NCBI RefSeq assembly: GCF_000743755.1 | Contig: NW_014569512.1 | Location: 1 to 53,485 of the forward strand | Direction: 5' to 3' | From: Blastocystis sp. subtype 4 | Taxonomy: Eukaryota | Length of the DNA: 53,485 bases | Shown: in pieces, positions 21,499 through 53,242 of the stretch | How the letters are laid out: each line of letters begins with the position of its first letter | Numbering within the stretch: the first letter of the stretch is position 1 | Notes under the pieces: generated by a model | Database searches by the model: none | What the model was told of the DNA's origin: nothing | The model's input: the letters and a program-made list of their open reading frames with translations, nothing else | Position numbers and translations under genes: made by a program

Positions 21499-24400
21499 AT
21501 GCCCGAACTTTCTGAGTACTATAATAACAAGGAGGAGTATATTTTGTCCGAAGTACGGTTTCTAGTACTCATTAAGAATAGGATAAAGAAGCTTTTATCA
21601 AGAAGAGATTCACACAAAGTGAAGAATTATGTTACAAGGTGCATGTACTCCACCTATGTGATATGTAGATTCTGTATCTCCAAGTTTACAATCCGAACGC
21701 ATTTGATGAACAGAAAGATTGCTTTGAGAAACTTCGAGATCTCTCTGTGTATGGGAAAACTAAGGAATTGCGAGATATGTTGTACTTCCGCTATTTACTA
21801 CTGAAACAAGGAGAATGTCCAGAGTTGAATCCGGAGTTGAAGTCGTATATTGCAGATCACTATGATGTGGCTATGAACTTTGGAAAGGCTCCTTTGAGAC
21901 CATCTGAAGATGTTTCCACCTCTCCAAGCAAATGTAGTATTGATTATAATGCTTTTCAATCGTTTCTAAAGGATATGGACTTGGAGTACTGTACCGATGT
22001 GTATGTGGAACGACTTCTTAAGGTTAACGAAGACAAGAAGATTGCACATCAACTCTTGAAACGTATTTCGCGTCCTGGAATAGATGGCATTTTGAAGAAT
22101 ATCATGTTGTATCTATCTACACTGGAACATGAGAATCTCTCTAGTCAATCGTTGTGGTTAGGTCTGTTGACATTCGAAGATATGGAACAATTGCAAGTGG
22201 ATGTTAAGAAGACGTATGACTTCGATATGTTCACTATCAGTGATTTCCGAGAGCAATATATCAAGCGTTTTGGAGATGTTCATATTGCTAGTGATGCGGA
22301 TCCTTCTTCTATTCTTCTCTGTGAGAAGATTCGAAACCGTCGCATTGAATTTTTAAAGAAGAATAATTTAGGAGGCTTGCAAGATGAATACTCGGCTCTT
22401 CTTTCGCTTCAGAAACGACGTGGAGTGTATAATACGGATCTGTTTTTGGCTTATCTTCAATCATCTGTAAAGGATTCATCTCTAGTTCGAGAGGTACGTG
22501 GATACATGTCATATAATAATACTCTAACCAGTTTCCATCAAGACTTCCTTCATCATATCTTTCCTCAAGAGAAACCAGATCAATTCTTGCGCTATTTGAA
22601 TGTCCATGCAGTGTTGTCAATCTATGAAGAGGAGTGTCTTCTTAGTGGACAGGAAATCAAGATCTCTGAATTGAGTGCGGAGGATGTTCAACGATTGAAT
22701 GAGATGAAACGTTGTCGTGTGTTAGATGATAATCAACTGTATTATAATACAGGCGATCCTGTATCTGTTCGTGTTGCATTGAAGAATGTATCTTCTCTTC
22801 AAGTCCAGGTCTTTGAATTGAATACAATGAGTATTTATAAGAAGCAGGATTCCATTTCTTCTCATATTGATTTGGATGGTCTACAGCCATTGATGTCTAT
22901 GTCGTATTCCTATTCATTACCATCGATGGTTTCACATATTGAAACATTTACTTTCCCTTCTCTGGATCATCGTGGTGTGTATGTGCTAGATTTCATTGCT
23001 GGATCTATCAACAGTCGTTTCCTCATTCGAATGGGTTCATTGAAGGCTCTGGTACGTACATCGATCATGGGCTATGCTCTTACGATTGTGGATGAGTTCG
23101 GAAATCGTGTGGAGGAGAATGTAAAGGTCATGGAGGGAGTTCGAAGCTTCACATTGGATTCGAATAAGGAGATTATCATCCCATTCTTGCCCCCAACAGA
23201 CTCATCGCGCACTGTGACTCTTCTCTTGTGCCAGGAAGTCCAACCGAACTGGTATTTCGTGGATCGTCACACAATGAAGTTGGAGGAAGAGAGGCCTCGT
23301 CTGACTCTGTGTGGTGATGTGGACAATGAGGATATTGTCAAGGGAAACGAGAAGTGTCGTCTGGTACTTCGTCCTGTGGCAACTCTGAACTCCGAAATCT
23401 ATCCACTGTCGTTACTTCGAAATGTAACAATCACCATACGTTGTGAAGCTTCTCAGGATGTGCACACTGAAACAACTCTTCATCCCACTCTGAAGGATAA
23501 CCAGGACTTTGCTTATTCCTTCCGTGTTCTTGATCATGTAGTATCATTAGCTGCAACTATAACAGCAGATATTGCTCTGTCAAATGGTTCCTTGCGCCAT
23601 CTTACTGCTGATTGCAATCTTTATAATGATCCTGTGCCTTCCTCTGATGTTATTACTTCTGTGAAGAAGAATGTTACTCTCTTCCGTCGTCGAAATCCTC
23701 AAAACAATGAGCTTGAGTATGTGGCTGCATTGTATGGACCTGCAGGTGAGCCATGCTGTGGTGTTTCGGTCAAAGTGGAGTTGAAGAGTATTCTGACAAC
23801 ACGCTCATATAACGTTCAGCTGGAGACCAATGAAAATGGTCATATTTTGCTTGGAAAGTTGGAGGATGTGAATATGGTGACTGTAAATGATGTTTCATTC
23901 CCTCTCTTGCAAGATCGCTTTGATATTCCTTCGAATGTGGAGTGTTCAGATTCTGATCCTGTTCAAGTGATGATTCCTGCTGTAACCAAGGATCTCCAAT
24001 CATATTCTCTGATTTGTATGAGTCAGATAGATATGAATGATCACTATGGCTCAATGGCGATTAAAGACGGATATTTGATGATAAGCGGATTGCCTGCTGG
24101 TTCGTATACTCTATATATGACTGGAGAGAACTCTCAGCGATACTCAATGTCGATTGAAGTTCGTCGTACTGTTCGTTTAATGAAGGTTTATGACCTATAT
24201 GCGGTATATGACACATGGGCAAGATCGTTGATGCCACAGCCTCTTTCCTTGGCATGTAATCTTTCTGATTCTAAGCTGCATATTCAGCTTCAGGGAGGAA
24301 GTTGCAACCGTCGTGTTCATGTCCAGTGTAAGCTGCTCTACGATAGCATGACCTTGGGAAAGCATTTAGAAGAAGGAAGTTCGACAAGTCAATCGTATTT

Positions 24401-27400
24401 CACTTCTCTGGATCCTATTTCGTCGGTAATTGTAAACGATCGATCGCTTCCTGAGGAATATGCCTACATCCTTGATCGCAAGCGTCAAAAGCGGGATCTT
24501 CCTGGAAACATGCTGCCACATCCTGGTCCTTTGCTGCATCCTGTGGAGTTTGCAGACACTAAGAACACAAGCCAGAAGGCAGAGAAAGGAAATGATTTTG
24601 CTGAAGAGAAGGTGGGATCTGGTTATGGAGCCCGTAATGCCAAACTCTGTGGAAGTAGAAGATTTGATCCGAAACCTCAGGCCTACCAGCGTTCAGCTTG
24701 TGAAGTCATTAATCGTCCCTCAAGCTTGATGTTGAACGTGGCGTTGGATGAGAATGGAGAATGTGACGTCAATCTGGAGGAACTGGGTACATACGGAGCT
24801 GAAGTGACTGTGGTGGCTGTAGATGAGGCCAAAACTGTGGAACGTCATTTGTACCTGGAAGAAACATGTCAAGAGAGGAAGATTCAAGACCTGCTTAGTG
24901 AACATCGTCTAAAAGAGAGTTTGGACTGTTCAAAGCATTTTACTGAGAGAAAGATCATCTCTTTAGTGACAGAAGACTCACCTCTATCACTGGATGGTAA
25001 GAGTGATATGGAAACAATTGGATCTCTTTCAGATTTGTTCTTATTGCTAAAGACATTGTCACATAATACTGAACTGGATTCATTCTCGTTCTTGTTATCA
25101 TGGAACGAATTGAGTGAAGCAGAGAAGGAAATGAACTACAACCGCAATATCTGTTCGGAACTCAATGTCTTCTTATACTTCCGAGATCGTTCTTTCTTTG
25201 ATACCAAGATTCTCCCTTATTTGAAGTGTAAAATGGAGAAGTCGTTCCTAGATCTCTATCTAATAGGAGAGGATGTGTCATCATTCCTGCAACCTCCTAA
25301 GCTTCTTCTTCTCAATGCTTTTGAGAAGGCTTTGTTATGTAGTAGGATTCCTGCGGAGGCAGCGAAAGGATTGGCTGAGAGTATGGGAGTGTGTGGAGAT
25401 GGAGAGCGGATGAGTACCAAGCAGTTCATGAAGATCTTCAATACAGTGTTGAAAATGAAGTCTATGGAGAGTCTTCCTGTCGAGAATGAAGAAGCTGATT
25501 TTGAAACTCCTGAAGAAGAAGAATGTGTTGAAGAAGGAGTTGAAGAGGACTCATTATGTTGTGACTCATCAAATTTTGAGAACAGAATGTTGTGTGGAGG
25601 TCCTGTTGTATATGCATGTGCCACTGCACCCATGGCACCTTCAGCTCAAGGTATGTCTGCTCCACTTCCAGCTCCCTATATGCCAGCTTCACCTGCTTAT
25701 ATGTCTACTGGAAGTTGTAGAATGGATAGAGGTGGACCAGTTCTACCTGAGACATGCTTGTCTTCCAGATCCATGCCCTTTAGGAATCGAATGGCAAGAG
25801 ATATGGCTTCGTTAAAGGAGCATAAGCAGAAGAGAGAAAAGCATTATGAATTGATGGAGAATACAAAGGAATATGTGGAGGGTTTCTATTTTAAAGAAGT
25901 CACCATGTATGTCGATCCTTCACGTGTTCCAAACTCTCCATTCTGGGAGGAGTTTGCATGTTATATGAGTAAGAAGGAATCAACACCATTCTTATCCAAG
26001 GAGTTCATTTATTGTACTCATTCGTTGTCAGAAATCCTCTTTTGTATGGCTGTTCTTGGTTTAGATATTCACAATGAGGTGAAAATTGAAGGAATGAATG
26101 AGATTGTGTTGCATTCAACCTCACCTGTCTTTGTATTCCACAAGATGTTGGCAGAAGCTGATATCATTCCCCATTCACAATCTCTCATTGTTCTTCAAAA
26201 GTACATTGATAACAACAATAACTATGTCAAGATTCAGGGAGAGAAAATGGAGCGATATATGACAGCAAATGAATTCCTTCCTTTCCATCCTTACACTTGT
26301 AAGATTTTCATCACAAATCTGGATTCTCTCCCTCAGAAGGTCTCGGTATTGTATCAGATTCCTGAAGGAAGTTGTCCTCTGTCTGAGAATTGGTACATGC
26401 ATACAGAATCACTTCAAGTACCTCCATACTCCACATCAACATTCTCCTATTGTTTCTATTTCCCTTCTCTGGGTGAATACAAGCATTATCCTGCTCATGT
26501 GATTGATGAAGTCTCTTCAGATGTAATTGGTTTTGCTCAGTCTTCCTTTGATACATTAACGGTTGTTCCTATGTTGAAGACAGTGGATAAGTTGTCATGG
26601 CGTGACATTGCTTATTATGCGAGTGAAGAGGATTTGTTTGTCTATCTGCGAACGCATTCACTAAAGGACATTGATTGGTCTTTGATGTATTGGCGTCTGA
26701 AGGATAAGTCATTCTATCTCTCCTTCATCAGTTTCCTACGACAGCTTGGCTTCTACACGGAGACATTGTGGAGCTATGGAGTTATACATGGAGATGCCAA
26801 AATAACAGGCGAGTATTTGAGTCGAAAAGTAAAGGATAAGTTGGGGCTGGTGTTTTCGTGTCCTATGCTGACAGTCGAGCCAGCTGTTGAGAATCTGTTC
26901 CAAATTCGTGAATACAAGCCATTCATAAACAGTCGTGCTTTCCGTTTGGGTAAGAGCATCGAGATAACGAATGACAAACTGAAGGAACAGTATACTAAGT
27001 TCTTAACATATCTAACACAGAAGAAGCCAACAACGGATGACTATCTAGTAATGGTCTACTATTTCATTCTTCTTGATCGTGTTCATGATGCTTTGGTATT
27101 GTTTAAAACACGTGTATGTGAGGAGGTGAATGGACAACTTGTATGTCATTCAGACTGTCATAGTGAGATTCAGTTTGATTACATGCATGCCTACTTCGAA
27201 TGTTTTAACAGTGATTTGTCAGCTGCTCGAGCCATTTGTGAGAAGTATCATTCGTATCCTGTTCTTTATTGGCGTAACATGTTTGCTAATGTGGAGGAGC
27301 TGATTCATGATGCCGAAGGATCTCTGGATTCAATGATGTTGGAGGATGAGGAGGAGATGGATCGAACAAATCTTCCTGAGAATGTGATACGATCAAAACG

Positions 27401-28010
27401 TGTGAAAGTTTCAGAAGACAGTTCTGTGAGTGTCTCGGTGACAGACAATACCCTTTCGATTCGCTATACGAATGTAGAGAAGGTACAAGTGAATCTCTAT
27501 GAGATTAGTGCAGAGTTAAAATTCAGTAATTCTCCCTTCCTTCATGATAGCTCTTCTGATTCTCTCTTCATTCGTCCGAATTACACTGAGGATGTCCAAC
27601 TCCCTGCTGTGCCCAAAGACAGACTGTTCGGTACTTTCTCGTATTCTCTTCCGGAAACGTGGGCTCACAAGAATTTGCTCATAGAAGTGTGTACAGACGA
27701 ATTACGTGAGACCTGCTTCTCTTTCAACTCTACTCTGGTCGTTATTCTCTCCCAGAAGTCAGGACAGTTGCGTGTATTTGATCAGACAACGAAACGTCCT
27801 CTTGCAAACGCTTATGTGAAGGTATATGTGAAGATCAATGAGAAGGCGGAGTTCTTGAAGGATGGATTTACCGATATTCGCGGATACTTCGACTATTTCG
27901 CAGTCAGTAATGACTTGGGAACGAAGGCAAAGGCAGTAGCTATCTTTGTGGATAAGGAGGGATATGGTTCTTGTATTCGCGAGACTCTTCCTCCAAATGC
28001 TAGTTTTTGA
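21499..28010 (+). CDS. ~2,150 aa conserved protein resembling Dictyostelium AbpF and large bacterial hypothetical proteins (alpha-2-macroglobulin-like beta domains)
   Basis: Two short 5' introns, then an uninterrupted 6.3-kb frame. Motifs IDLDGL, RGVYVLDF, LPGNMLPHP and C-terminal RPLANAYVKVY...FLKDGFTDIRGYFDY. Family assignment is from recall. Confidence 0.7.
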
Positions 28011-28172: not shown

Positions 28173-31135
28173 ATGAGTAACGTTGATGAATGGCTTCGTA
28201 AGGTTTGTGATTGCTGTTGAAATTGATAAATCAGTCAAAAGTGATTAAGGACTCTACTCCTACCTCTCTTCGAGTTCAAATTCAAGAATCTTCCTATGAT
28301 GCTTCTGTCATGCTCCACTACAATTCGGATATCGTGATCGGAGGATATACTGGGATGTTTCTAAGTGTAACAGAGCGCCAATCCTCAAAATGGAGGATCG
28401 CGGTTAATGGTTCAGGTTCGGGTGTTGAGGATGTATGAATAGAGTGGTAAAATCACAGATAGGATACATTTGTGATAGTAAAAGCGAATAATCCTAGTGA
28501 TACTAGTATTATCCACAATGGAGATGTTATATGTATTCGTCATAAATGTTGATCTATTTTATTAATGATAATATCTAGTATTCATGCGTTACTTGAGTTA
28601 TGATCCTGAAACAAGTGAAGTCTCTCTAGTTGCCCGTGTGAATGGCGAGAGTGAAAACTGGATTATTTTCAATGATTTTGTTCCAGATACTTCAGGAGAG
28701 GTGGAATCGGGAAGTTATGTAGTACTGAAACGTCCAACAGGTCAATATCTAACATATGTGCAGGATCATGGTCAAGAAGGATTATTAAGTGTATCTGGAA
28801 GTAATACGGATACACGTTTATATGATCAGCAAATTTGGCGTATTTTAAAAGCGCATTCGTCCTATTTGGAAGTACTTAAATGATTCTTTCATTTAAAGTA
28901 GATTACGCCCAATTCGTTGTACAGTGAACAAATCATCAATCCAAAGCAGAAAGAGAATGTAGACCTTCGAAATCTCCCATATCAAGTCCAAGCCTCTCTG
29001 ATAACAGAAGAAGTCCGTATGGCCTTATTCTTGTCTCCTGGCCGTTTATTATCGATTACAAAGAGTGACATGCCTCGAATTCAAAACAAACAACTGTTGA
29101 TCGATGTTCCGATTGATTATGGGAAAGCAGAGGACTATTTGAAACTTGGGTTTTCTGTTAACGATCAGTATCACTTTGATGTTAATCTGAAGAATCTTCT
29201 AGAAGTTCTTCTACCAAGTGTAAATCAAGTTATATCCTTTGAATGAATGAATGATATTGCGTTCTTAACATCAATTACGAATCAAAACCTTCATTAATCA
29301 GAACAATCGATTCGAGTTCGGTCGTGTCATAACCGCGGTTATTCATCTAATCACGGAGAACATCACTACGTTTGACCGCATTATTAGTGAAGTACTCTGT
29401 TCTTCTATTATCCTAATCTAGTTGTCTCCATCCATCAGTCTCTCCAATCTACATCTCGTGCTTCTCTATTGGAATAACCAACTAGAAGTGATGGATAATC
29501 TGTGTCGATTATGTTCTATTATTCGAGGAGGACAATTACTCAATCAGCTGATCTTATTAGAGGAGAATGAAAGTAATGAACAAAAGAAACAGTTCTATCG
29601 AGATGTATTGGATACAGCTTCCAAGGAATACTTTGATATGATGCAGGATTATATTTATAAGGGTGAAGTGAATGATTACTATAATGTAGATTGTTTTTGT
29701 CATTCCTGAAATATAGGAGTTTATGGTTGTACATCGTCAAGAATCGTTGGGACGATTAGGAGCAGTCAACGAGTTCGAGTTTAACCCGATTCACGAATTG
29801 TCTGCCATCAGCAGTTCGAATGCAAAGATTCTTCTTTGTGGTCATTACATCAATATTGTGAATCATACGAATACGCCAGTAGAGAACCCTTGTTTTAAGC
29901 AATGGGCTTTTGGATATGATGTGACAGTGTATGGAGAAAACGTGAGAATATGAATATGAAGTGAGGAATAGATTGATGAAGCCTTCGATTATGCAAACCA
30001 GTTATTGTTAGGAGTATTGCGCAACGACGAACATGATATTACAAGTGTGATATGTAATTTGAATCGTTTGTTTTTCCTTCTTCGAGGAGAGCTATGTATT
30101 TGTCTCTACGACACTCTAAATGATTATTTGAATCAAAATGCGTCCAGTATTGATGTTGTGAAGATGCAGTCTCTGTTTCAAGTTTGTATGATTTCAGCAT
30201 TTAATGATGGTAAGCCATCAACTCAGCGATTCATTGACTCGGTATCAGTAAATAAACGACTTGCTCGAAGTGATCGTGAAAAAGGCTGGGATGTGATGGA
30301 AGTGAGTGTGATGTTGGAGTATCCATTGAATATTGTGATTTCAAATGCTATTCTACAGAAGTACCGAAACCTGTTTCATTTGCTGTTGATGCTCAATGTA
30401 TGTTTGAAGAGGGATAATCACTGGTAGAGAACTTGTCGGTCATTGGATATGTGTTGGTGTGTATTGAATCAGTACAAGCAACGTTCCGTTCAATCGAAAC
30501 TATATATGGCTCGATCACTTCATAACAATCTAAAGTATTTTGTGAATACACTGTTGTATTATCTATCAACTGATGTAGGCAATACTCACATATTTAATAA
30601 CAGGTAATTGGTCCTGCAACTACACAATTCGAAAAGGAACTACCTGTATATTCAACAGTTGATGACTTTGTGAAAGGTTTTGAAGACTTTGTGGGAGATG
30701 TGTATGAAAAGTGTTTCTTGGTGAGTGAAGGGTTATTGCGTGGGTTAAGAAGCATTTGTAGTGTATGTCTCGATTTCACAGAATTTGTTGATAAGCAGTT
30801 ACATTGGGAGTAATGGAGGAGATATGAGAGTAATGAATAGTAATCAGTTGGGTCGACGGAAGATGGATCTGAGTATAGAAGAATCGACTCAGGAAGAAGG
30901 AACAATTCGTCCTTTGGTAGTGATGAACCAAGAGATTGGAACCCGTTTACGAAGTCAGATAGCAAAGGTAGAAGAAAGGACAGGAGCTGAACTCTGGAGT
31001 GCTCGTATAGAAGAACTGAAATCGAGTTTTGTTCGTTATCGAAGTGAGTTTTTAAGTATTCTGGAAGCGCAACCAGGGTTTTTGCAGTCAACGTTTTTGA
31101 GTTTGCATCGAAAATTGCGTCAACAGTATCGATAG
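28173..31135 (+). CDS. Gamma-tubulin complex component (GCP2/Spc97-like) with N-terminal beta-trefoil-like extension
   Basis: RGGQLLNQL, ASKEYFDMMQDYIYKGEVNDYY-EF, KILLCGHYIN, NLNRLFFLLRGEL, GWDVMEVSVMLEYPLNIVISNAILQKYRNLFHLLL are GRIP-domain motifs. Confidence 0.85.
29232..29271 (+). other. U12-type intron with AT-AT termini (40 nt)
   Basis: ATATCCTT...TTCTTAAC-AT; contains stops; removal gives VNQV|QLRIKTF in frame. Confidence 0.7.
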
Positions 31136-35154: not shown

Positions 35155-35653
35155 ATGGTAAGTTTTGATTCCTTAGTGCGGTGTTGAGAGAACAACGGAG
35201 AATCGTACTTATTGTGTGTAGTCAGGAAAAGGAGGAAAAGGAGGAAAGGGAGGAAAGGCCCCTTCAAGCAAGAAGCAAGTGATGACCCGTTCGACCAAGG
35301 CTGGTCTTCAGTTCCCTGTCGGTCGTATTCACAGATTCCTGAAGAGCCGTGTGTCTGCTCGTCAACGTGTGGGAGCTACTGCTGCTGTATACATTGCTGC
35401 CATTCTAGAGTATCTGAGTGCTGAGGTACTGGAGTTGGCTGGAAACGCTTCTAAGGATCTGAAGGTGAAACGTATTACTCCCCGTCATCTTCAACTCGCC
35501 ATTCGTGGAGACGAGGAATTGGATACTCTTGTAAAGGCTACGATTGCTGGAGGAGGTGTTGTTCCTTACATTCAGCCTACTCTCATTGGAAAGAACGGTG
35601 AAGAGGATGAGGAGAAGGAGCTGGAAATTGAGGAGCAAGAGGATGTTGAATAA
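35155..35653 (+). CDS. H2AZ: Histone variant H2A.Z with acidic C-terminal tail
   Basis: ATG, 64-nt intron, then SGKGGKGGK...[66 protein letters not shown]. Confidence 0.95.
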
Positions 35654-51205: not shown

Positions 51206-53242
51206 ATGAATGCTGCTGATAAGTTGGCCCAGTTGCGTAGAGGATAGGTGGTGATTTGTAATGGCTAGGGAGCGTTATGGAAGCAAAGAAATTGGATGCA
51301 TATGTAATTCCAAGCGAAGATCAACACATGAGCGAATATGTTCCTGATTGTTATCAAAGGCGTCGTTGGATCTCAGAATTCACTGGATCTGCTGGAACGG
51401 GTTTGGGTAGACTCTTTCGTTGACAAGTAGCAGTAGTAACAAAGAGTGAAGCCCTTCTTTGGACAGATTCTCGCTATTTTCTGCAGGCATCCAACCAGTT
51501 ACCTTCGTTTTGGACGTTGATGAAAATGGGAACGGAAGATTGTCCTAAAATGAGTGTACACGCATGGAAATGTCTTTTACTATAGGAATGGTTAGAAAAC
51601 AATCTTCCAGAGAAGAGTCGTGTTGGAGTGGATGGAACTCTAATCTCGTCTACAAGTGGGGAATTGATAGCAACACGACTGAAAAAGAAATCAATTGAAT
51701 TTGTCTGTGAAAAGGAGAATCTCGTTGATTTAGTGTGGAAGGATCGTCCTGCAATTCCTTGTACACCTGTTGTATATTTGTCAACGGAAGATGCAGGAGA
51801 AAGTGTTCAGAGCAAAGTGAAAAGAGTACTCCAAAGGATATTGATTCATTATAGGTTCGTAAAGCCATTAACGAACTGAATGCTAACACCCTCATTCTGA
51901 CGACACTTGCCGATGTCTGTTGGTTGTTGAATATTCGTGGAGATGATATTGCTTTCAATCCGTATGTCTACGGATATGTCGTTATTGATCCTGAAGCGGT
52001 GCATTTCTTTGTTCATGAAGGTCGTATTGACAATAGTCACTTCAGGGATGTGAATGTGATTCTCCATCCTTATGACTCCTTTTCGTCCTTTATCAATGAA
52101 TTACATGAACGGAGTGATGTGAAGCTGTGTTTTGACAAGAAGGATGTGAGTTTCCAGTTGTCCCAAGCTGTGTCAGATCTGAAGCCTCTTTCAGTTCTGA
52201 AGTAGTCATAAGTGGGAGATGTGATTGTAGTCCTGTGAGTGTAATGAAGGCAATGAAGAACTCGTTAGAAGTAGCTCACATCAAGGAGGCCTTCCTTCGT
52301 GATAGTGTGGCAATGATTCATCTGTTGTATTGGTTGGAAAATCAGATTGATACAGGTCTTACAGAAGTTGAAGTGGCTGAAAAATCGACAGAACTTCGTC
52401 GTGAGCTAGCCGGATCATTCGGAGACTCCTTTGAACCAATTGTAGGATATGGTCGTAATGCTGCCATTGTTCACTACAAGCCAGAGAAAGAAACAGCTGC
52501 TACGCTAGGTCGTGATTCATGTGTCCTGTTGGACACAGGTGGTCAGTACCATTGGGGCACGACAGATATTACACGAACCGTGGTAATTCCATCAGATCCG
52601 TCGTTGAGAAAGGTGAATATGGATTATCGGAGGCGATATACGGCAGTGTTGAAGGGTCATATTGCTCTGGAATGTATTCGTTTCCCCGAAGGAACTCGTG
52701 GTATTCAGTTGGATGTTCTGGCTCGGAAGGCTCTGTGGATGATGGGGCTTGATTATGGACACGGTACAGGTCATGGTGTTGGTTATTTCAGCGGTGTACA
52801 TGAAGGTCCTGATGTGAGAATGCGAAGTGAGGATGATGGATAGTCGATTAGTTGTCGTCCGACACAGTATCAGGGAGGACTAAAGGAGGGAATGACGATG
52901 ACAGACGAGCCGGGATATTATGATGAAGAAGGTGGATACGGCATCCGTATTGAGAATACGTTGTATATCCTTCGAGAATCAGATGATTGGTACCTTAATA
53001 GTAGTGGTTGAGAAGACGGATTATGTGAATGCTTCTTTCGGATGTCGGTTCCTTCATTTTGTCCCATTATCATATGTCCCTATTCAAGCCAGTATGTGTG
53101 TGAAAGAGATGTTAGAAGAGTGGGAGAAGAAATGGCTTCAAGAGTATAATCAAGAATGTGTCGATAGAATGAAGCCTTTGATTCATGATGAAAAGGTATT
53201 AGAGTGGCTACAGAGACAAGCAGACGAGGCGAAAGAATTGTA
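51206..53242 (+). CDS. Xaa-Pro aminopeptidase P (M24B)
   Basis: IPSEDQHMSEY, SEFTGSAGT, LLWTDSRYF, LDTGGQYHWGTTDITRT, HGTGHGVG..VHEGP, TDEPGYY, GIRIEN. Probable poly(A)-completed stop at 53241-53242; the genomic stop is at 53267. Confidence 0.95.
52965..53001 (+). other. U12-type intron with AT-AG termini (37 nt; 40 nt if the next AG is used)
   Basis: ATATCCTT...ACCTTAAT-AG; removal gives GIRIENTLLVVEK in frame. Confidence 0.75.

What the first reader, a model, noticed from the sequence alone, without database searches (positions are those of the whole stretch)
29232..29271. U12-type intron with non-canonical AT-AT ends in the gamma-tubulin complex gene
Seen: perfect minor 5' site ATATCCTT and a branch-like TTCTTAAC followed by only 2 nt (AT). 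The reading frame requires a 40-nt (AT-AT) or 37-nt (AT-AA) excision, and AC would be out of frame. The GT-AG alternative (73 nt) would delete the LRIKTFINQ segment. All three minor introns in this window share the geometry branch motif + AN = 3' end, much closer than the usual 10-20 nt U12 spacing. Inference: the 3' splice site is set by position from the branch point, with a free terminal nucleotide.
Basis: partly seen in the sequence, partly recalled or inferred. Interest (0 to 1): 0.72.

Follow-up and report, generated by a model that had tools for sequence, protein, structure and literature searches.

The report
Compact AT-AA minor intron in Blastocystis
A gamma-tubulin-complex gene of what is likely the gut protist Blastocystis carries a real 43-base rare-class ("minor") intron that RNA shows is cut at AT...AA, not at the AT...AT end first proposed; it is an ordinary member of a known intron class, though this lineage packs the likely branch site unusually close to the intron's end.

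Summary
The intron is real; the proposed ends are wrong. A spliced RNA contig joins 29231 to 29275, giving a 43-nt AT-AA intron (29232-29274), with no junction ambiguity. The 40-nt AT-AT, 37-nt and 73-nt forms are not seen. The branch motif is followed by 5 nt, not 2. I then predicted 40 nt AT-AG, not 37, for the window's second minor intron at 52965, and RNA confirmed it. In 120 of 336 published Blastocystis ST1 ATATCC introns, tallied by hand, the tail is 4-7 nt in 118, unclear in 2, never 3 or less; ends are AC 77, AG 38, AA 3, AT 2. An orthologue in another strain has a likely AT-AG intron at the same codon. Blastocystis minor introns are published, and AT-AA is the commonest non-canonical minor end. 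I did not find the short spacing or the AT-AG excess described in text. The scan noted an AT-AA minor intron before in another protist, none in this lineage.

The parts
29232..29274 (+). 43-nt A-type (AT-AA) minor-class intron, phase 0
   Evidence: RNA contig joint 29231->29275, ends AT..AA, unambiguous; keeps the ORF
29232..29239 (+). U12-type 5' splice site ATATCCTT
   Evidence: sequence; donor used in RNA
29262..29269 (+). U12-type branch motif TTCTTAAC; likely branch A at 29268 (-7) or 29267 (-8)
   Evidence: 1 mismatch to TCCTTAAC; branch nucleotide inferred, no lariat data
29270..29274 (+). 5-nt tail; AT at 29270-29271 is skipped, CAA at 29272-29274 is the 3' splice site
28310..31135 (+). 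Gamma-tubulin complex component gene, GCP2-like; 836 aa from the ATG at 28310 (the true start may lie further up); 9 GT-AG introns of 29-31 nt plus the minor intron
   Evidence: introns from RNA, ORF, Pfam GCP_N and GCP_C; best PDB sequence hits GCP2 but weak, E 0.005 and 0.5
52965..53004 (+). Second minor-class intron, 40 nt, AT-AG, branch-like ACCTTAAT plus 5-nt tail, in a Peptidase_M24 gene
   Evidence: RNA joint 52964->53005, AT..AG, both=0, depth 313.9; PF00557 E 7e-32

Best explanation
The stretch 29232-29274 is a 43-nt intron spliced at AT...AA, likely by the minor (U12) spliceosome, which likely picks the 3' end by a short fixed distance from the branch site. Shown: the junction, the skipped AT directly after the branch motif, the same 5-nt tail at the second intron, and a 4-7 nt tail in the ST1 introns read. 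Inferred: U11 and U6atac read ATATCCTT; U12 pairs with TTCTTAAC and branches at A29268 or A29267; at step two an A about 4-6 nt past the motif serves as A(-2), with a pyrimidine preferred at -3 (CAA wins over the AAT one base later). The last base faces the 5' A rather than a G and is loosely read, so AC, AG, AA and AT all occur. An AN right after the motif is likely too close to loop back onto the branch A. The spacing matches the major introns of the same window (A at -8 in 19 of 32), so it is likely a lineage-wide compaction shared by both spliceosomes.
For:: joint 29231->29275, skips 43, AT..AA, in a contig that also lacks the gene's 9 GT-AG introns; the run has poly(A) loose ends; prediction noted beforehand and confirmed, 40 nt AT..AG; orthologue L003 (53% GC, 65% aa over 142 aa) has ATATCC at the same codon boundary, a 39-nt stretch with an in-frame stop ending AG, 4 nt after TTCCTTCAC, and aligns with no extra Gln; hand tally of 120 of 336 ST1 rows gives tails of 4 nt 1, 5 nt 64, 6 nt 41, 7 nt 12, unclear 2. 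Introns of 131 and 178 nt keep a 5-nt tail. Three rows end in a 5-nt tail with AA (OAO17746_3, OAO15786_3, OAO16877_8); OAO12124_3 skips an AT directly after the motif; all four minor snRNAs and seven minor proteins are reported for ST1 and ST7; in the yeast P complex A(-2) pairs with the branch A, the -1 base with the +1 base, and Prp8 prefers a pyrimidine at -3; major-intron geometry.
Against: Each junction rests on one contig of one run (X1, library not on record); X2-X4 do not cover 29232, and contigs drop rare isoforms, so low use of the in-frame 40-nt site is not excluded. One X3 contig ends at 52965, one base into the second intron, so it says nothing on that junction. No lariat data. 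No U11, U12, U4atac or U6atac gene lies in the window or L003, and no whole genome is held, so the minor machinery was not shown for this genome. The L003 junction is inferred from homology only. The tally is by eye, on annotated introns, with two identical pairs counted twice. The genus is inferred, not looked up.
Confidence: 0.88

Rival explanations
1. One reading: the 3' site lies 2 nt after the branch motif, giving a 40-nt AT-AT intron as the main product.
For: In frame (870-residue open run); AT-AT ends occur in ST1 (2 of 120 rows) and in animals.
Against: RNA shows 43 nt; the same rule fails at 52965; 0 of 120 ST1 rows have a tail of 3 nt or less; the orthologue aligns without the extra Gln.
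Confidence: 0.02
2. Tandem acceptors: 43 nt dominates, but the in-frame site 3 nt upstream is used at low level, adding one Gln.
For: Both cuts keep the frame at 29232 and at 52965; contigs drop rare variants (tool note); U12 3' site choice is described as error-prone (PMC3584512 passage).
Against: No such joint was listed at min_share 5 or, for 52965, at min_share 1, though contigs cannot show absence. The +2 site would need A(-2) to pair with a branch A two bases away (inferred).
Confidence: 0.06
3. The intron is removed by the major spliceosome as a non-canonical AT-AN intron; the minor-like motifs are vestigial.
For: The branch-to-end distance equals that of the major introns; U2-type AT-AC introns exist (PMC1557818 passage); ST1 minor introns have a major-like phase distribution (PMC10639083); the minor snRNAs were not seen in this genome.
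Against: Perfect extended 5' site and a U12-type branch motif, kept in a 65%-identical orthologue; length class 37-43 nt against 29-34 nt for 31 of 32 major introns; full minor machinery reported in ST1 and ST7.
Confidence: 0.05

Closest known systems
U12-type introns of Blastocystis ST1 (Gentekaki et al. 2017, PMC5608401: 346 introns in 319 genes; Larue and Roy 2023, PMC10639083: 253, median 39 nt)
   Same: ATATCC 5' site, YTTNAY branch motif, 4-7 nt tail, about 37-43 nt length, AT-AA ends in 3 of 120 rows read.
   Different: Nothing of kind. The window is about 40% GC, unlike ST1's high GC, so likely another subtype; the paper's ST4 sheet and the held part of its ST7 sheet list no ATATCC-starting intron, so such introns are likely unannotated there.
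A-type (AT-AN) minor introns of animals and plants (de Wolf et al. 2021, PMC8280824; Sheth et al. 2006, PMC1557818)
   Same: Same 5' site and branch consensus, variable last base. AT-AA is the commonest non-canonical end in both kingdoms.
   Different: Optimum branch-to-3' distance is given as 11-13 nt and AT-AG as disfavoured; human has 169 AT-AC, 11 AT-AG, 3 AT-AA, 6 AT-AT. Here the likely branch A is at -7 or -8, and 38 of 120 ST1 rows are AT-AG.
Major introns with fixed short branch-to-AG distance in Trichomonas, Giardia and Yarrowia (Irimia and Roy 2008, PMC2483917)
   Same: Branch motif anchored a few bases from the end with no pyrimidine tract: 4 nt (Trichomonas, Giardia) or 2 nt (Yarrowia) before the AG, that is 6 or 4 nt to the end.
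   Different: Those are U2-type, AG-ending introns in mostly intron-poor genomes; this is a U12-type intron with a free last base in an intron-rich genome.

Membership tests
U12-type (minor) intron | 5' site RTATCCTT used as donor | tested here: met
U12-type (minor) intron | Branch motif close to TCCTTAAC near the 3' end | tested here: met
   TTCTTAAC, 1 mismatch; motif only, branch nucleotide not mapped
U12-type (minor) intron | Textbook branch-to-3' distance of about 10-20 nt (optimum 11-13) | tested here: not met
   Likely branch A at -7 or -8. A typical trait of animal and plant introns, not met by the published Blastocystis class either. I did not see how the review counts the distance.
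U12-type (minor) intron | Excised from mRNA, restoring the frame | tested here: met
U12-type (minor) intron | Minor snRNAs and proteins present in the genome | not testable with these tools
   No genome held; none in window or L003; reported for ST1 and ST7
U12-type (minor) intron | Splicing depends on U11, U12, U4atac and U6atac | not testable with these tools
   needs knock-down or crosslinking
A-type (AT-AN) subtype | First base A, penultimate base A, last base variable | tested here: met
   AT..AA, AT..AG at 52965, likely AT..AG in the orthologue
   junction is after 29274
Blastocystis ST1 minor-intron class | 4-7 nt between branch motif and intron end; length mostly 37-43 nt | tested here: met
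   5 nt, 43 nt; ST1 tally
Gamma-tubulin complex component, GCP2 paralogue | GCP_N and GCP_C domains; closest to GCP2 | tested here: inconclusive
   Domains met; GCP2 ranks first in two PDB searches but only at E 0.005 and 0.5; no tree built

The most novel reading that the evidence does not exclude
Blastocystis runs a rewired minor spliceosome that serves almost only A-type introns, measures the 3' site 4-7 nt past the branch motif (about half the animal and plant distance), reads only A(-2) and leaves the last base nearly free (a third AT-AG), with a shifted branch consensus CCTTCAC that should be mirrored in its U12 snRNA. G-type minor introns have vanished or been absorbed into the 30-nt major class. 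It would be a natural minimal system for how the minor spliceosome picks a 3' site.
Probability: 0.5. Interest if true: 0.6.

Novelty: new member of a known kind. Interest (0 to 1): 0.33.

Why it matters
As a single intron it is ordinary: AT-AA is a known end and Blastocystis minor introns are published. It matters for annotation, since automated gene sets that list no ATATCC introns will break genes such as this one, and classifiers that want a branch 8-30 nt upstream may score them poorly (inference). The lineage-level pattern behind it (very short fixed spacing, many AT-AG ends, few if any G-type introns) bears on how the minor spliceosome chooses 3' sites and on whether AT-AG is a viable intermediate in subtype switching, and it can be tested on public data.

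Tried and rejected
40-nt AT-AT, 37-nt and 73-nt GT-AG cuts: not the junction seen. Assembly error hiding an AC end: rejected, two identical DNA contigs. Excess of RTATCCTT in the window (17 against 4.4 expected): not evidence for introns; many of the other 15 sites lie antisense inside long ORFs or within exons, and looser scans gave no convincing third intron. 39661 as minor intron: rejected. Runs X2-X5 gave no cover of either junction. Protein search with the largest exon found nothing among 331 candidates; a second found 3 short predicted fragments of 44 candidates, none spanning the junction, so the ST1 orthologue of this intron was not identified. The profile search against representatives could not be run. 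PDB search with exon 29275-29391 gave no GCP hit. Rfam found only tRNAs. Primary papers on U12 3' site spacing (Dietrich 2001 and 2005, Levine and Durbin 2001) were not held. The scan's look-up for look-alike stretches returned nothing.

Full report
Observation. A 5' site plus branch pair of this quality occurs twice in the window against a mean of 0.08 in 200 approximate dinucleotide shuffles, 2 of which reached 2. The host gene has GCP_N and GCP_C domains; GCP2 is the best but weak PDB match. The frame argument was incomplete: cuts of 37, 40 and 43 nt all keep the frame, while 38 nt (AT-AC) and retention do not.

Organism. No genome is held. I infer Blastocystis from 29-34 nt GT-AG introns (31 of 32 RNA-supported major introns) and from three poly(A) sites each followed 4 nt later by TGTTTGTT. 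That this motif and poly(A)-made stops mark the genus is recalled; PMC12129017 mentions a downstream element and missing stop codons (passages).

RNA. Run X1 holds spliced, polyadenylated contigs. One contig of depth 169 skips 29232-29274: 43 nt, AT..AA, no letters that fit on either side, 255 letters of flank. It also lacks the nine GT-AG introns of the gene. X2-X4 do not cover this place. The claim fails by a third route.

A second test. The other strong site, 52965, offers AG at +2 (37 nt) and AG at +5 (40 nt), both in frame. I noted the prediction of 40 nt before the result came; the contig skips 40 nt, AT..AG, depth 313.9. I found no third minor intron; 39661 is an exon match ahead of a 29-nt GT-AG intron. 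RNA was laid on about 22 kb of 53 kb and tables were cut, so a third is not excluded.

Orthologue. L003 (53% GC, 65% identical over the 142-aa query) has ATATCC at the same codon boundary. Removing 39 nt, ending AG 4 nt after TTCCTTCAC, removes an in-frame stop and aligns the two proteins with no extra residue. This is homology, not RNA. It shows a conserved minor intron whose last base likely differs between strains.

The class. S11 Data of PMC5608401 lists ST1 introns from an RNA-curated annotation; 336 rows begin ATATCC, all in the ST1 sheet (the file is cut inside the ST7 sheet). I read rows 1-30, 76-105, 151-180 and 307-336 and counted by eye the bases after the YTTNAY motif: 4 nt 1, 5 nt 64, 6 nt 41, 7 nt 12, unclear 2, three or fewer 0. 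Ends: AC 77, AG 38, AA 3, AT 2. No rows were dropped; two identical pairs are counted twice. Several rows skip an AN directly after the motif, and introns of 131 and 178 nt keep 5 nt, so the spacing is not just a result of short length. In rows 1-30 the base before the last A of the motif is C 19, A 8, G 2, T 1. The 25 ST1 rows starting GTATCCTT are all 29-33 nt, the major-class length, which hints that G-type minor introns are rare or absent; I did not score their branch sites.

Mechanism. Shown: junctions, skipped proximal AN, spacing, free last base. Inferred: minor spliceosome recognition (machinery reported for ST1 and ST7; not seen in this genome), branching at A29268 or A29267, and step-two docking as in the yeast P complex, where A(-2) pairs with the branch A, the last base with the first, and Prp8 prefers a pyrimidine at -3 (10.1101/212811, passages). 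That fits CAA being used over the AAT one base later and makes a 2-nt tail unlikely. Major introns of the window have A at -8 in 19 of 32 and T at -10 in 24 of 32, so both intron classes likely share the short ruler.

Comparison with print. Blastocystis minor introns are known (PMC5608401, section Introns and supplements 12 and 32; PMC10639083, passages and section 30). AT-AA is the commonest non-canonical minor end in animals and plants, and AT-AN is a named subtype (PMC8280824, passages). The review PMC3584512 gives an optimum distance of 11-13 nt and calls AT-AG disfavoured (passages); human counts are 169 AT-AC and 11 AT-AG (PMC1557818, passages). Short anchored branch sites are known for major introns of Trichomonas, Giardia and Yarrowia (PMC2483917, passages). 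I did not find the Blastocystis spacing or AT-AG excess stated in text: searches, and term look-ups in PMC5608401, PMC10639083, PMC11347168, PMC12129017 and PMC8280824. PMC2846911 (passages) gave only the consensus motifs and scoring window. The logo in Fig 1 of PMC5608401, which I could not see, probably shows the spacing; the supplements of PMC10639083 were not read, and subscription papers are not held.

Verdict. A real A-type minor intron, 43 nt, AT-AA: a new member of a known kind. The headline AT-AT end and 2-nt geometry are refuted at two introns. What remains of interest is the lineage-wide compact, last-base-free 3' site, already latent in published data. Interest 0.33.

Noticed in passing
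window 53242 (+), also 28024 and 35678: Poly(A) is added at these places, each followed 4 nt later by TGTTTGTT. At 53242 the transcript ends in TA, so the tail likely completes a TAA stop for the Peptidase_M24 gene; recalled as a known Blastocystis trait.
   Followed up: partly
PMC5608401 S11 Data, ST4 and ST7 sheets: No intron starting ATATCC is listed for ST4 or in the held part of ST7, so those gene sets likely miss all A-type minor introns.
   Followed up: partly
PMC5608401 S11 Data, ST1 sheet: Branch consensus is shifted to CCTTCAC (C before the last A in 19 of rows 1-30); all 25 GTATCCTT introns are 29-33 nt.
   Followed up: partly
window 35158-35221 (+): A 64-nt GT-AG skip among 29-34 nt introns, with only 23 letters on its short side; about two intron lengths, possibly a skipped micro-exon or a weak joint.
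   Followed up: no
L003 vs window 15331-36466: Gene order appears conserved between the window and a 53% GC relative: six blastn blocks in the same order and orientation, including a tRNA.
   Followed up: no
window 28310-28900 (+): The GCP protein has an N-terminal part of about 300 aa with no Pfam hit above threshold on the two exons scanned, yet conserved in L003.
   Followed up: no
window 22000-27975: RNA contigs run over 1.3-1.5 kb with no gaps and higher depth: a long, apparently intron-poor transcript in an intron-rich window.
   Followed up: no
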